DNA of 64,000 nt from Escherichia coli (lineage in GTDB: Bacteria > Pseudomonadota > Gammaproteobacteria > Enterobacterales > Enterobacteriaceae). The position numbers are program-made. The stretch is taken from the NCBI RefSeq assembly GCF_016026235.1, contig NZ_CP065613.1. One strand, given 5' to 3'. Below, in pieces: positions 9,001-15,000 of the stretch. The stretch's first letter is position 1, and each line of letters begins with the position of its first letter.

Positions 9001-12000
9001 AGCGTGTCGCACAGTGCGCTCAGGTAAGTACTCTTTCCGCGTCCTGGTGGACCAGTCAGCACAATTGCCTTTCCGGTAGCATTAATTGTGCTCTGGACAA
9101 ATTCTTGATGGAATATTTCATCAGGAACCTCATAACCTTCTGGAACAACAAAATCCTCTGGCAAAGGAGCTGGAGGTGAAGCTCGCAAGATGGTTCCAAC
9201 CTCTGCCAGTTTAATCCAGCCATCCGGCGCAGGGAGATTTTTTTGCGTTGCCCAATTCAGAGCCACATATTTTAGATTAGCGATTCCCTCTGGCGTACCA
9301 TGCAGTCGAAGGCGAGCATCAACTTCATGCTCCAATGCAAGATAGCCCTTATCGCTGTGTCGAATACATAATTGTCTGAAGAAAAGTTTGCATTCCTCAA
9401 CGCCGCCGAGTTCAACTTCTACCAAGGTGCGCTGAGGTTCTGGGATCTTAGAAGGATCAATCCGGTCTCGTTCCAGACAAACCTCAATAGCAGCATCTGG
9501 TCGGCGATTCGTTATGAGCGAAATTTCGCCAATACGCACTGGATCAAGTTGTTTGAAAGCATCGAACCATTTGCGTAGCATCGATCTCGACCGCTCTGTC
9601 TTGCCCGTTTTCTCCAGCATCCAATCCCAAGATAGAAGATGCGTCTCAGAATCTGGGGTGAACTTGATCTGCTGAAGGTCAACGAAGCCATCACTTCGTT
9701 CGATGACGATATCATCTAGTCCCTGTGGTGCTTCGTTTTCATTATCACATTCAAATTTCACGCGGCTATAGCGCGTCGGCGCATCAAGCCAATCGCACAG
9801 GACCTTAAGGCCCTGGCGATTTTGATAAATATAACCAGCTGCAGTGATGGCGGTTTTCTTAATATCTTCACTCATAGCATCAAGGTATGTTTAGTTCGGT
9901 TTTGATCCAAGTGTCCAAAGTGTCTACACGTACAAACTGGGTCGGAACAGGATATGGCGGATGAACCATCCAGTAGTACACATCGCGGCTTACATAGAGT
10001 TCAATATTCCTTAAAGGAACACTCTCTGGCTGTGGCCACTGGAGCAGTTCAAGCAACCTTGAACGGTGAGTTTCGAGAAATTTTCTGCGGTCTAAAATAC
10101 GACTGAATTGTCCTGCCCTGTCATTCTCTGCCTTGCCAAATATCCGATCACGAAGACGACGGCTATCTTTCATTGTAAATGGCGGCTGGTTGTACTTACA
10201 CTCTACTGTCACGAGCAAATTGCTTTCCGGCCAGTATGCAAAAACATCGAAATCACCAACGTCATCAAACTTCTCTTCCCGGAATCTTCTAAAGAAATCA
10301 ATACCTCGCTGAACATAAGGTGTATGCCTGCGGAATATTTCCTCTGTACGAAGCTCGAGACGCTTTTCAATACTCTCCTTAACCTCGCGAATGACTGGCT
10401 TAACATGAGGCCAATCAAATTCCGCAGGCAAATAACCGTCTCGTACCGCCGACATCCAAATGTACATTGCCCGGCTTGCCGACTCTGCCCCCCAACGCAA
10501 ATCGGCACCATCAATTACCAGCGGCTTGATAGTGTATCGATCGATTCGCTTATTCCGCTCCCAATATGGAATATCTCCTTCATCGATATCCCTTCCAACG
10601 AGCCTACGAACTCCTACTTCCGAAAGAGTCAGAAAAGCAACAATCTTTTGGGCCTCAGAATAGTCAAGCCTATCAATGCTATCAGCCAACCCTCGCGCAA
10701 GGCGATCAGGTGCTGCAGCATAAGACAAGGAAAGTTCGTTCCCGAATCCATATCGTTGAGCTTGCGATAACACAGCGAGAACAGTGAGCATATTCTGAAG
10801 CTCGAACCCCAAATCGGTGATAAAAGCTTTTTTGAGTTTCTCTGAAGCCAGCAACCCCTCTGGCTCTCCTTCCACCGCATCCTTGTCATTTGTGCCAAGC
10901 CCCAACCTGGACTTCGCATACTCCTTTGCAAAGGTAGCCTCACGATCACCAAAATCTGTCGAATAGAAAACTTCTGGAATATATGAGTCGTCGATCTCAA
11001 CACCACCCACATCTATACCATTGTGAAGGGTATCACTGGCACCAGTCAGCACCATGAACCAATCAACCAAGCCAACTAATTCTCGTAGTACATCCTCTGT
11101 AACTCTATCTACACCATTTGAAGATAAATTGACGGTCTTCTCTAGTAGATATCGATAATGGCGGGCCTTATCACCGAATTCTTTGCGTGCATGTTCTATC
11201 GCATCAAGTCTGTCATACTCAACTTCATGAGCAAGACTCAAACGGGCTCGTTGGATTCTAGTCCTCTCAGTAACAAGGAGGGCATCGTGTTGCTCGATGA
11301 ATGCCTGCAGAAGCTGATGCCTATCAAATGCTGCAAGTCGATTCTCAATGTGAAGACGCATGCGAGCACTGGAAGGATCAATCCTGGCCTTGGCATCTGA
11401 CAGTTCATACCTGCCAGGAATAAACCCAAGCCCCATGATTTCTGCGGCCAGTTTTCTACGGGCAAGCTTGTAATCGGTAGGCGAAGGAATTATAGGGTAT
11501 ACATAGTCGGGGACATCAATATTACGGGTCATGACTTTTAAATGATAACGAGCCGCTTGCGACGCTATATGAGTAAATCGTTGAGCAAATTCATCAGGCA
11601 TCTGCAAACCAAGTACTGCATGACATTTTTCGAGCGTTTCCAGTAAGCAACGAACCTCGAATGATCCATCCTTGGAAAGATTTAATCCAGCAAGCACTGC
11701 ACGTGTATCAACTTGAACGTGAAATACATCGGGGTTGTGGGAATCCGGGATGACTGAAGTCACCACGTGTTTAAATTCGTCTAAAGAAGAAGGACTCTCT
11801 TCAGCTTTAACCAGACTAGATGGTTCAGGGGAGCACGTAAACAAAACATGCGGCTGCCTAAATAGAGAAATATCAGACATCATTTTTCTGCAGCGATAGC
11901 TACAGTCGGCCAGAAGTTGGGCAAAAAGGTCTATCAGACGTCCATCTTCAAAGCGTAATTCTTTGGTTATTTCTATTAATGTTTGAACGGTACAGGAACC

Positions 12001-15000
12001 AATCGATGTTGAGTATGCCATCGCTTTGTGATGACGCGATTCAAGTCGAACGACACCTTCAGTTGAAGAACTCAACGTCCATCCGATAGAGCTGTCTGGA
12101 AATACCTTGGGTGCACGAGACCAGAATTCTGTCAATATCTTGAAGCGCCAAGAAGTCCCCCAGTGAGGGTCTAGCCCAATGAAGTTAGGTGCAATCGCAC
12201 CTTCGACAAGCACACCATGCATGTCTTTGAATGATGCAAACAGGTCTACTGTTCCACGGGAAAATGGGCTGAGCGTCCCCTCTTGAGCATCTGTAAATTT
12301 CCAATAACTTTCTAATTCTTCCAGATCGTTGAGACTATCAAAAATCGTGATGAAATCCGCTAATGGAAACAAACGAGTTGGCTTTGAGGGGAGATTGATG
12401 GAATTAAACGCAGTACCCGCGAGTGTAACGACAATAACGATGTGAAGCTCATCGACGCTAGGTTCTGCACCAACTCTAGATAGAGAAAGGAAACGTCCAT
12501 CATCAAGACGGAAGAAAATCGGCGATCCACGACTCACCTTGGCGTATATGCTTTCCGCTGCGTTTGACAGGCGGTCATTAGATGTATGGTCACATGTGCA
12601 AATGAGATATATCCCAGAATTACCCAGTATAATACAACTGATAGGCAGGTCTTTGCAGGCGGTGCCGTCAACATACAGAGTCAAAGGCCCTATAAGGGTT
12701 CTTTGGAATCGCTCAGCGACAAACTCTGCAAGTTTCCTGTGCGTAGAGGGGCTAATCCCGTTCAGATTTTTGTTAGCCCAATGGTCAATAATGAGACCCG
12801 GTGCACTGCGTACTGACATTGGTATCCATACCCTATCCATCTCGACAGCAAGGAAAGGTAGCGCCATGCCTTGCATCACTGCATTTCCGAACGCATCCGG
12901 TTTCAGCGGTGCTTTGAAAGTGCCAACACGAGTATCGAACGTACACCCTGCTTTCTTTCGGCGGTTCGCTAGCTCATTGCCAAGTTGTTGAAGCAAAGAC
13001 TTGCAAGTCAACCAGAAGTCTTCAGTAGCTAGTTCAACATCAGCACATTGGGCCTCGGTGTTGACAGAGAGCATCAACTCAGGAATCGATTCGATGATCT
13101 GCGCTTGCAGCGCAATGGCAAGATCCATATGGGCTTGTGCTTCTGGAATATGAGCATAGGTAATGCGAAATGCTTCTACGAAGTCAGACATTCTCTCAAT
13201 GCAACTCCCGTAGAACATAGGGACGAAGTCTTGACCAAGCCGTACTTTGATTTGCCCCCAATCAGCCTCGGGGGAAAAATCCTCAAGCATTGGGAATTCA
13301 GGCCATGATGCGTATAATTCTTTTGTAAATACTTTAAAATCTACATAGCTATCAATCGATATACCTACCTGAGACTCAAATGGCAGCTCTAAAAGGACAC
13401 ACCAAGCAAAAATATGCTTTATGGGGCTACCTGTATTGGCTGGCCAGAGTTCGGAAGTAAATAATGCAACTGCTACGTCGAGGGTTTTGTATCGGCGAAA
13501 TAAATTCTGGGTGGCTTCCAGATGCTTACAAAAGTATGTGTCTTCACCTACCCCATTCGTAAACAATTCACGATATCTGGACATATCGTGTATCAAAGAA
13601 TCATAATCAACCTTTTGCTCTGTTAGTTTTCTTTCCCGCTTTTCACGTGACTTCCTACCCACTTCATATCCTCCCTGTATGCATACGTTGACAGTCTATA
13701 CGGTATCGAAGCATAGAAATTATTAATGCGTATCATAATGAATATCTTGAGTCACTTACTGTACCGCCCTCACAAAAGTGCATAGCCTCAAACTATCAAA
13801 CACATCCGACAAATTGTTACATTTATATTATTGCAACCATAAAACCCAATAATTTGATAAATAATAAATTTTTCTTATTTCAACTAGTCACACTTCAGAT
13901 TGGTTTACATAACTTTAGCGCAAATCACTGTTTGCCAATAATCACTTCTTCAAAAGCGGCTTTCACATTTTCATCCTCCGCTATCCGCCCTGATCAGTTA
14001 CCACAGCTAATGCAGACAATGCGAAATGCCAACATTATTTTGCCTACTCGATGCTTGTTCATGTGGCAACTTCTAACTATCTCACGACCCGCAGAAGCGG
14101 CAGAAGCTCGTTGGGATGAGATCGATTTTGAAGCTAAAGAATGGAAAATTCCTGCAGCTCGAATGAAGATGAACCGGGACCATACGGTTCCGCTAGGTTC
14201 GCGAGGCCTGAGCTTGGCGCAGCTATCGCCAGCAGAATCACCGCTGATGCAAGTGGCGCAGGCGCAGTTAAAGCATCTGTTACCCGCACATCTGATGGCT
14301 TCATTTTCGCCGTTTTTTAGTCAAGCGGGACACACTTCCTAGCCACAGCAAACGGGCGCTGAGAGAGTGGGAATGGCCGCAGAAGGTGCGGGTGGTCGCG
14401 GCCAGTCAGCCGCTCCTACCACCGGTGATCCAGGAAGGCATGTTTGACGCGGTCAGTGAAGCGCTTTACCAAGACCCTTGGCTGAACATTGATTACCGCA
14501 ATGCTCAAGATACTCGCCGTCAGGCGGAGGTGATGCCCCTTGGTTTTAGTCCTACAGGGCTCACGTCTGCAAAGCTAATGGGAAGAGTGTGGTACTCACT
14601 CTCTCCCATATAATCTTCCAAACTATGGCGAAACAGGCGTTAGCGGTTTTTTTACTTTGCTCAAAATCCAGGCATCAATCTCGGATTCTAGCCACCCCAC
14701 CGTCTTTGCTCCCAGTTTCACCCTTTGGGGAAATGTCGGATCATGACGATCAGAACTAGGGTCAAGCCAGTCGTATACCATTGAACGCCCAATGCCTAAC
14801 TTCTTGACAAGTGCAGGTACACGAAGGATTTTTACAGACTTTGGTTCCATTAAAGAGCTTCCTCTCTTGGTTTGCTTAGGATGGAAGTCAGACTATCTAC
14901 TGATGCAACTGTGCGACATACGGCTGCAGTACTTCATTTTTTACGGAGCTTAACTGATTGAATAATGGATAATTTTAGTTTTAACGATTTTATCGTTGAT

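What the first reader, a model, noticed from the sequence alone, without database searches (positions are those of the whole stretch)
9880..13662. 1260-aa first gene: no NTPase or helicase motifs, C-terminal D...ExK signature
This is the largest partner and has the best ribosome-binding site in the operon, so it is probably the lead gene. I find no Walker A, DEAD/H, DGQQR or GHKL motif. The extreme C-terminus (GDFDVFAYWPESNLLVTVECKY) resembles a PD-(D/E)xK nuclease core. A large sensor-type protein with a C-terminal nuclease, partnered with a STAND NTPase, is not an arrangement I recognise.
Basis: inference. Interest (0 to 1): 0.65.

Follow-up and report, generated by a model that had tools for sequence, protein, structure and literature searches.

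The report
Upx-family phage-defence nuclease beside Avs1
The 1260-residue gene is a member of the known Upx family of single-protein anti-phage sensors with a C-terminal nuclease, here sitting in front of a separate two-gene Avs1-type STAND system, an arrangement already noted in a 2026 preprint.

Summary
Window 9880-13662 (- strand) is a 1260-aa ORF with a GTG start and a strong ribosome-binding site. It has no NTPase, helicase or GHKL motifs. It carries GDFD...ECK at aa 1136-1157, and D1139, E1154 and K1156 are almost invariant across 121 relatives.

It is not a new kind of protein. It belongs to the Upx defence family:
- A family profile hits the Upx cryo-EM chain 9WUF at E=1.4e-14.
- The protein's RefSeq accession, WP_000532863.1, is listed among Upx homologs in Evans et al. 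2026.

That preprint also notes that some Upx genes sit beside a split-TPR Avs1. Here that would be gene 2 (1475 aa, nuclease plus NACHT) and gene 3 (482 aa).

My locus census shows that the two modules are separable. Upx occurs without Avs1 in about 16 of 26 informative Upx-selected loci, and the Avs1 pair occurs without Upx in 6 of 7.

Most likely mechanism, by homology: the N-terminal sensor binds the phage large terminase and the PD-(D/E)xK nuclease is then activated.

Verdict: already known, low interest. The untested question is whether Upx and Avs1 cooperate.

The parts
9880..13662 (-). Gene 1: Upx-family defence protein, 1260 aa, GTG start (WP_000532863.1)
13663..13680 (-). Ribosome-binding site GGGAGGA, 7 nt upstream of the GTG
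   Evidence: Sequence read directly.
11761..13482 (-). N-terminal region, about aa 61-634. It is the putative phage-protein sensor and corresponds to the Upx NTD and part of the MD. It contains a conserved acidic cluster: E127, D128, D134-W-G and D160.
   Evidence: Confident AF2 model. Covered by the full-length structural alignment to 9wuf. No sequence-level match to SeUpx in this region. Conservation figures. The sensor role is inferred from Evans et al..
9991..11760 (-). Region with sequence-detectable homology to the end of the SeUpx MD and its CTD (aa 635-1224)
   Evidence: HHalign probability 98.1%, E=8.8e-14, 560 aligned columns. hmmsearch profile positions 737-1204 against 9wuf_A residues 745-1228.
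9883..10404 (-). PD-(D/E)xK nuclease core, about aa 1087-1260
10192..10257 (-). Catalytic motif GDFD(1139)...E(1154)CK(1156)Y, equivalent to SeUpx D1161/E1176/K1178
   Evidence: Coordinates. Residue-by-residue alignment to 9wuf. Near-invariance. The SeUpx E1176A and E1176A/K1178A mutants lose defence.
5448..9875 (-). Gene 2: Avs1-type STAND/NACHT protein, 1475 aa. It has an N-terminal Cap4/LmuA-like nuclease (aa 9-145) and Walker A GPPGRGKS at aa 275. It is a separate module that starts 4 nt after the gene 1 stop.
   Evidence: PADLOC hits: Avs1b 4.4e-11, SAVED_PDDEXK 2.8e-08, LmuA 1.6e-05. RefSeq name 'NACHT domain-containing protein'. Walker A position.
4003..5451 (-). Gene 3: 482-aa obligate partner of gene 2, presumed to be the split-off part of the Avs1 TPR sensor. 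Its start overlaps the gene 2 stop by 4 nt.
   Evidence: A gene 3 homolog follows gene 2 in every gene-2-bearing locus examined, although it is broken in L022. The family is uniformly about 480 aa. The split-TPR reading comes from Evans et al. and was not confirmed here, because the AF2 model is poor.

Best explanation
Gene 1 is an E. coli member of the Upx family, a stand-alone, NTPase-free anti-phage protein of about 1250 aa.

By homology its N-terminal two thirds is a sensor for a phage protein. That protein is most likely the ATPase domain of the large terminase, which Evans et al. predict is bound in a partly unfolded state by beta-augmentation. Its C-terminal PD-(D/E)xK domain (D1139, E1154, K1156) is a Mg2+-dependent nuclease. 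In SeUpx that nuclease is a 3'-5' ssDNA exonuclease. Its activation stops the infection, probably at the cost of the cell.

In this island, next to intA and inserted at ssrA in the matching genome, the gene is co-transcribed with a separate two-gene split Avs1 STAND system (genes 2 and 3). According to the literature the Avs1 family also senses terminase. The locus is therefore best read as two independent terminase-triggered nuclease systems stacked in one operon, not as one three-subunit machine.

Shown here: family membership, the fold, conservation of the catalytic residues, and the separability of the modules. Inferred from the papers: the trigger, the substrate and the outcome for the cell.
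For: Family membership:
- The profile of 121 relatives hits 9wuf_A at E=1.4e-14, collinear (profile 737-1204 against chain 745-1228), with the catalytic D/E/K aligned.
- HHalign gives probability 98.1% over aa 635-1224.
- The AF2 model has pLDDT 91.3 and pTM 0.86.
- Its only significant Foldseek hit in the PDB is 9wuf: E=5.5e-25, TM 0.57/0.57, 1355 alignment columns.

Mechanism, from papers:
- SeUpx, HpUpx and PbUpx are activated by diverse terminases, and the E1176A mutant loses both defence and toxicity.
- SeUpx is a monomeric Mg2+-dependent 3'-5' ssDNA exonuclease.

Modularity:
- Gene 1 is followed by genes 2 and 3 in 10 loci and is without them in about 16.
- The NACHT plus gene 3 pair lacks Upx in 6 of 7 loci chosen through gene 3.
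- In L020 and L030 gene 1 is 52% identical to the window but gene 2 is 68%, and a 273-nt spacer separates them. This indicates module shuffling.
Against: - Nothing has been tested experimentally for this E. coli protein or for its clade's nearest relatives.
- The N-terminal 634 aa have no sequence-detectable similarity to SeUpx. Identity in the structural alignment is 10-13% and TM is only 0.57, so the trigger specificity could differ.
- The two Upx papers disagree on the trigger: gp16 in Zhou et al., terminase in Evans et al..
- The 4-nt gene 1/gene 2 spacing, the lack of an obvious RBS for gene 2, and the existence of an 'Avs1-associated clade' of Upx leave room for functional coupling.
- The PADLOC Upx HMM does not match gene 1, and no Pfam family, PF28173 included, is on record for its homologs.
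Confidence: 0.8

Rival explanations
1. Upx, the NACHT protein and gene 3 form one integrated system in this clade. Upx might need Avs1 for activation or regulation, the reverse might hold, or one might hand terminase to the other, so that gene 1 alone is inactive or uncontrolled.
For: - Tight operon: a 4-nt gap between genes 1 and 2, a 4-nt overlap between genes 2 and 3, one strong RBS at gene 1 and none evident for gene 2.
- Gene 1, gene 2 and gene 3 identities fall together across L004, L015, L005, L006, L013, L010 and L022.
- Evans et al. describe a distinct Avs1-associated Upx clade with 18 neighbourhoods.
Against: - Close relatives of gene 1 (43-71% identity) lack genes 2 and 3 in about 16 loci.
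- The NACHT plus gene 3 pair stands without Upx in Burkholderia, Shewanella, Serratia and Pseudomonas.
- SeUpx, HpUpx and PbUpx work as single genes.
- L020 and L030 show a recombined pairing with a 273-nt spacer.
Confidence: 0.12
2. Gene 1 is a Upx-type dual nuclease as proposed by Zhou et al. In that model a second, atypical nuclease site in the N-terminal domain is auto-inhibited by the middle domain and is released by a phage ejection or structural protein of the gp16 type, rather than by terminase.
For: - Zhou et al. report NTD exonuclease activity that depends on D122, D127, R129, E147 and D173, and its relief by gp16.
- Gene 1's family has a nearly invariant acidic cluster at similar positions: E127 111/121, D128 119/121, D134 116/121, D160 105/121.
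Against: - Evans et al. found terminase gp19 to be the sole PhiV-1 activator and found gp16 inactive. HpUpx also acts on T4, which lacks gp16.
- I could not align the NTD residues of SeUpx to gene 1 because I did not obtain a full-length SeUpx sequence, so the correspondence of the acidic cluster is unverified.
Confidence: 0.15
3. Gene 1 is not a defence gene. It is instead a nuclease that serves the integrative element, for example in maintenance, exclusion or recombination, or it is a housekeeping enzyme.
For: It lies in an integrase-bearing island inserted at ssrA, together with TA modules, an antirestriction gene and radC.
Against: - It is present in only 10 of 5426 complete E. coli genomes.
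- Relatives sit beside CBASS-like, Hachiman and other defence genes in unrelated genomic contexts.
- There is full-length homology to an experimentally validated defence protein.
Confidence: 0.03

Closest known systems
SeUpx (Salmonella enterica Upx, WP_060647174.1 / SQI81149.1; cryo-EM structure 9WUF)
   Same: - Length: 1260 aa against 1272 aa.
- No NTPase.
- Three-part architecture with a C-terminal PD-(D/E)xK core.
- Catalytic D/E/K at equivalent positions: 1139/1154/1156 against 1161/1176/1178.
   Different: - Only 10-13% identity in the structural alignments.
- The N-terminal 634 aa are not alignable by sequence.
- No match to the PADLOC Upx HMM, and no Pfam family (PF28173 included) on record for gene 1's homologs.
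- SeUpx was studied as a solitary gene, whereas this one heads an operon with Avs1.
PbUpx / HpUpx (divergent Upx homologs tested by Evans et al. 2026)
   Same: - These are experimentally terminase-activated Upx proteins that share as little as 16% identity with SeUpx, which shows that function is kept across the family's depth.
- The PbUpx N-terminus carries the YSF.DWAKSLF..LWLPNI motif seen in the consensus of gene 1's branch.
   Different: I did not hold their full sequences, so the relationship rests on a short N-terminal motif and on shared membership of Table S5. Gene 1 itself has WPAN where the consensus has WLPN.
Avs1-3 (antiviral STAND terminase sensors), for the neighbouring genes 2 and 3
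   Same: - Gene 2 has an N-terminal nuclease effector and a STAND/NACHT NTPase.
- Its best PADLOC STAND hit is Avs1b.
- Gene 2 plus gene 3 is 1957 aa, against 1924 positions in the Avs1b profile.
- Evans et al. call this a split-TPR Avs1 variant.
   Different: - The sensor is split over two ORFs.
- Only profile positions 209-626 match.
- Gene 3 has no detectable similarity to anything, and its model is poor.
- Gene 1 itself is unrelated to Avs proteins.
Can2/Card1-type and FokI-type PD-(D/E)xK nuclease domains
   Different: The similarity is limited to the nuclease core. There is no CARF or DNA-recognition domain, and identity is 9-13%.

Membership tests
Upx | Single polypeptide of about 1250 aa lacking any NTPase | tested here: met
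   1260 aa. No Walker A or B, DGQQR or GHKL motif. The median Upx length is 1,245 aa in Evans et al. Fig. S13.
Upx | C-terminal PD-(D/E)xK nuclease with D...ExK equivalent to SeUpx D1161/E1176/K1178 | tested here: met
   GDFD1139...E1154CK1156 aligns residue for residue with GDID1161...E1176CK1178. D1139 is 121/121, E1154 is 119/121 and K1156 is 118/121.
Upx | Significant sequence-profile homology to SeUpx | tested here: met
   hmmsearch of profile A2 against the PDB: 9wuf_A at E=1.4e-14. HHalign probability 98.1%, E=8.8e-14, aa 635-1224. The match covers the C-terminal half only.
Upx | Full-length fold shared with the Upx cryo-EM structure, including the N-terminal sensor | tested here: met
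Upx | Detected by the existing family models (PADLOC Upx HMM PDLC02221; Pfam PF28173, which is on record for SeUpx-like proteins) | tested here: not met
   No PADLOC hit for gene 1, although the model scores 1626 bits on SeUpx-like P0391. No Pfam family is on record for gene 1's homologs, whereas PF28173.1 is on record for the SeUpx-like clade. These are narrow models and not a definition of the family.
Upx | Included in the published family census | tested here: met
Upx | Confers phage resistance as a single gene, and toxicity is triggered by the large terminase and depends on the ExK motif | not testable with these tools
   Shown for SeUpx, HpUpx and PbUpx only.
PD-(D/E)xK nuclease superfamily | alpha-beta-beta-beta-alpha-beta core, with the acidic residue on beta2 and (D/E)xK on beta3 | tested here: met
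Avs1 (genes 2 and 3) | N-terminal effector, central STAND NTPase and C-terminal TPR sensor | tested here: inconclusive
   The effector nuclease and the NACHT domain are confirmed (PADLOC Avs1b 4.4e-11 over profile positions 209-626 of 1924, SAVED_PDDEXK and LmuA hits, Walker A). The sensor part is not matched. The gene 3 model has pLDDT 53 and no fold hit. The split-TPR identity rests on Evans et al. and on the summed length.
Obligate three-gene Upx-Avs1 system | The genes always co-occur | tested here: not met
   Upx occurs without Avs1 in about 16 loci, and Avs1 occurs without Upx in 6 of 7 loci.

The most novel reading that the evidence does not exclude
In the Avs1-associated clade, Upx and the split Avs1 may be functionally coupled rather than merely stacked. 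They might be two sensors of different conformations of the same phage terminase, unfolded or nascent for Upx and folded with ATP bound for Avs1. Their nucleases, an ssDNA exonuclease and a Cap4-like dsDNA endonuclease, could then cooperate, or each could back the other up against terminase escape mutants or anti-defence proteins. Gene 4 (565 aa, no recognisable family), which recurs downstream of Upx, could be a further unrecognised component.
Probability: 0.15. Interest if true: 0.6.

Novelty: already known. Interest (0 to 1): 0.25.

Why it matters
For annotation: a large branch of the Upx family, with hundreds of clusters across Proteobacteria and including this E. coli island gene, is invisible to PADLOC v2 and to the Pfam scans run here, and RefSeq labels it 'hypothetical'. 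Recognising it fills a gap in defence-island maps.

For biology: the locus places two unrelated sensors of the same phage protein, the large terminase, in one operon. This is a natural test case for whether stacked defence systems that share a trigger act redundantly or synergistically. The arrangement itself has already been reported, so the finding mainly confirms and locates a known system.

Tried and rejected
- Pfam, PADLOC, NCBIfam and PHROGs scans of gene 1 gave nothing.
- A profile built from close relatives only (A1) gave just E=1.6 to 9wuf. The match became significant only with the deep alignment A2.
- The search for related loci with A2 failed for lack of a conserved stretch, so A1 was used.
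- The attempt to fetch full-length SeUpx through its CTD fragment returned only partial proteins of up to 836 aa. The NTD catalytic residues of Zhou et al. could therefore not be mapped onto gene 1.
- The local Pfam library lacks PF28173, so its name could not be read.
- Gene 3: no PADLOC hit even at E<=10, no PDB sequence hit, a poor AF2 model (pLDDT 53) and no Foldseek hit. No fused long homolog appeared among 120 relatives. Its identity as a split TPR is therefore not independently verified.
- Gene 2 has no PDB sequence hit.
- Gene 4 as a 'second Upx' was rejected (hhalign probability 0.4%).
- The large neighbouring ORFs of 1145-1740 aa in L006, L008, L012, L015, L020, L030, L037 and L040, and the 508-aa genes upstream of the NACHT gene in L041 and L042, are not Upx-like.
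- The lone DELH at aa 404 was considered as a helicase motif and rejected, because the column is mostly gaps in the family and there is no Walker A.
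Full report
**1. The observation**

Window 9880..13662 on the - strand is a 1260-codon ORF that starts with GTG. GGGAGGA lies 7 nt upstream of the start. The next gene has no obvious Shine-Dalgarno sequence and the third has AGGAAG. The DNA is 100% identical to a CDS in E. coli MS15047 and MB57 that RefSeq annotates as hypothetical protein WP_000532863.1.

A regex scan finds no Walker A or B, DGQQR or GHKL motif. The only DExH-like string, DELH at aa 404, falls in a column that is mostly gaps across the family. The string GDFDVFAYWPESNLLVTVECKY is at aa 1136-1157, window 10192-10257.

Gene 2 (1475 aa) is larger than gene 1. The motif is about 100 residues from the C-terminus, not at the extreme end.

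**2. It is a real, deep family**

The word-indexed search found 246 clusters at 90% identity. The 120 listed are mostly about 1260 aa, all those with a source name are called 'hypothetical', and none has a Pfam family on record. The exhaustive phmmer search found 526 clusters at 50% identity with E<=1e-3. Of these, 228 have E<=1e-30, and nearly all of those listed are full-length at about 1250 aa, down to 24% identity.

In a 121-sequence alignment (A2, mean column identity 26%) the catalytic residues are almost invariant:

| Residue | Conservation |
|---|---|
| D1139 | 121/121 |
| E1154 | 119/121 (2 are D) |
| K1156 | 118/121 |
| D1137 | 115/121 (6 are E) |

An N-terminal acidic cluster is also nearly invariant: E127, D128, D134-W-G and D160.

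**3. What it is**

Standard libraries gave nothing for gene 1: Pfam, PADLOC, NCBIfam and PHROGs all returned no hit. Four lines of evidence nevertheless identify it as a Upx homolog.

- **Profile against the PDB.** A profile of close relatives touched PDB chain 9wuf_A only at E=1.6, but exactly on the motif, GDIDLLAW...VLVIECK. With the deep profile A2 the hit became E=1.4e-14. It is collinear (profile 737-1204 against chain 745-1228), and the catalytic residues are aligned.
[quoted passage not shown] Zhou et al. (PMC13099982) define an NTD (1-515), an MD (516-714) and a CTD (715-1272), with catalytic D1161/E1176/K1178. They report Mg2+-dependent 3'-5' ssDNA exonuclease activity.
- **HHalign.** A2 against a SeUpx-like fragment gave probability 98.1% over gene 1 aa 635-1224.

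In the model, D1139 sits on beta2 and E1154/K1156 on beta3 of an alpha-beta-beta-beta-alpha-beta core.

**4. It is already catalogued**

Evans et al. [quoted passage not shown] Their Fig. S13 shows an Avs1-associated clade and 18 neighbourhoods.

They also report the following:
- SeUpx, HpUpx and PbUpx are activated by diverse large terminases, and the ATPase domain is sufficient.
- The E1176A mutant loses both defence and toxicity.
- AlphaFold 3 predicts binding of a locally unfolded ATPase domain by beta-augmentation in the N-terminal sensor.
- They dispute the gp16 trigger proposed by Zhou et al.

The PbUpx N-terminus carries the YSF.DWAKSLF..LWLPNI motif of the A2 consensus. This suggests that gene 1's branch includes a tested member. 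I treat it as a lead only, since I did not hold the full PbUpx sequence.

**5. The neighbours**

Gene 2 (5448-9875, 1475 aa) has an N-terminal Cap4/LmuA-like PD-(D/E)xK nuclease at aa 9-145. Its NACHT/STAND NTPase has Walker A GPPGRGKS at aa 275. Its best PADLOC STAND hit is Avs1b, at 4.4e-11 over profile positions 209-626 of 1924.

Gene 3 (4003-5451, 482 aa) overlaps the gene 2 stop by 4 nt. A gene 3 homolog follows gene 2 in every gene-2-bearing locus examined, although it is broken in L022. Together the two genes are 1957 aa, close to the length of the Avs1b profile. I could not verify independently that gene 3 is the split-off TPR:
- It has no PADLOC or PDB sequence hit.
- Its AF2 model is poor, with pLDDT 53 and only the first ~220 aa confidently helical.
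- Foldseek found nothing.

**6. Is the partnership obligatory?**

It is not.

Among the loci drawn from one genome per species through gene 1, plus the reference E. coli locus and one metagenomic relative (gene 1 identity 38-100%), those with downstream sequence fall into three groups:

| Arrangement after gene 1 | Loci |
|---|---|
| Genes 2+3 | 10 (window/L001, L004, L005, L006, L010, L013, L015, L020, L022, L030) |
| Gene 4 homolog, no genes 2/3 | 4 (L012 fragment, L017, L021, L028) |
| None of these | about 12 |

Among 7 loci reached through gene 3, six have the NACHT plus gene 3 pair with no Upx: Burkholderia cenocepacia, Shewanella woodyi, Pseudomonas sp. LFM046, Serratia fonticola and two further Pseudomonas loci. 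One, from Lonsdalea, has an IS-truncated Upx remnant of 453 aa.

In L020 and L030 gene 1 is 52% identical to the window protein but gene 2 is 68%, and a 273-nt spacer separates them. This indicates recombination between modules. Upx and the split Avs1 are therefore separable, independently mobile modules.

Some observations leave a minority chance of functional coupling in this clade. The spacing here is tight. Identities of the three genes fall together across several genera.

**7. Mechanism, and what is shown versus inferred**

Shown here:
- membership of the Upx family
- the nuclease fold
- near-invariant catalytic residues
- absence of an NTPase
- modularity of the locus

Inferred from the two papers:
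- The N-terminal region senses a phage protein, most likely the large terminase.
- Binding activates the Mg2+-dependent PD-(D/E)xK nuclease.
- Infection is aborted.

In this locus a second, unrelated sensor whose family is reported to sense terminase (Avs1), with its own nuclease effector, is co-transcribed.

**8. Context**

In the matching genome MS15047 the operon lies in an integrase-bearing island inserted at ssrA, together with CbtA/YeeU, RadC, antirestriction, YfjI and GTPase genes. The window itself begins next to intA. The operon is present in only 10 of 5426 complete E. coli genomes.

**9. Verdict**

The protein and its pairing with a STAND NTPase are already described, so novelty is low.

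What remains open and testable:
- whether the two modules, both predicted to sense terminase, cooperate
- which trigger model holds for this clade
- what gene 4 does

Noticed in passing
window 2186-3883 (- strand); also L004, L015, L017, L021, L028, L039, L043: Gene 4 is a 565-aa ORF 119 nt downstream of gene 3. It has lower GC (0.376) and no Pfam, PADLOC, NCBIfam or PDB-sequence hit, and it is not Upx-like. Homologs at about 53% identity lie 50-56 nt after Upx in loci without Avs1, and after gene 3 in four Avs1-containing loci (window, L004, L015, L039). None is present in the six Avs1-only loci. A homolog also stands alone next to a CBASS operon on the P. aeruginosa megaplasmid pWTJH36, which has no Upx. 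It is probably an independent, uncharacterised defence-island gene that travels with this Upx clade.
   Followed up: partly
window 4003-5451 (gene 3) and homologs P0272-P0390: Several NCBI records name this ~480-aa family 'multidrug DMT transporter permease'. Its invariable position after an Avs1-type NACHT gene argues against a transporter, and so does a partly helical, partly beta-strand model. The name looks like an annotation error that has propagated.
   Followed up: partly
gene 1 family (P0151, P0262; window 9880-13662): The PADLOC v2 Upx HMM (PDLC02221) scores 1626 bits on a SeUpx-like protein. It gives no hit for gene 1 or for the two distant members of its branch that I tested. RefSeq calls gene 1 hypothetical, so current defence finders probably under-count Upx.
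   Followed up: yes
L041 4061-5587 and L042 4061-5587: In two Pseudomonas loci the NACHT plus gene 3 pair is preceded by a different 508-aa gene with no Pfam hit. It overlaps the NACHT start by 8 nt and is not Upx-like. It may be an alternative upstream partner of split Avs1.
   Followed up: partly
window 13603-13662 (gene 1 aa 1-20): The family's close members share a basic N-terminal tail, MGKKSRxKRERRL (K8 and R11 are >=90% conserved). The same tail opens a Gilliamella Upx in Evans et al. Table S5. Its function is unknown, and it was left out of the structure model.
   Followed up: no
L044 1942-4620 (Lactococcus cremoris plasmid pFI430, WP_014735040.1): This 892-aa hypothetical protein, just downstream of IS981, is weakly similar to gene 1 aa 715-1166 (20.6% identity, E=6e-6). 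It may be a Gram-positive plasmid relative of the Upx CTD. Zhou et al. place Upx near AbiU-1 in their tree.
   Followed up: no
L004 9960-14380; L022 17429-18872; L039 2885-5509; L001 25773-27565: Several copies of the operon are decaying. Gene 2 is split in Photorhabdus (L004). Gene 3 is split in Morganella (L022). Upx is truncated by an IS in Lonsdalea (L039). Gene 4 is interrupted by IS1 in E. coli MS15047.
   Followed up: partly
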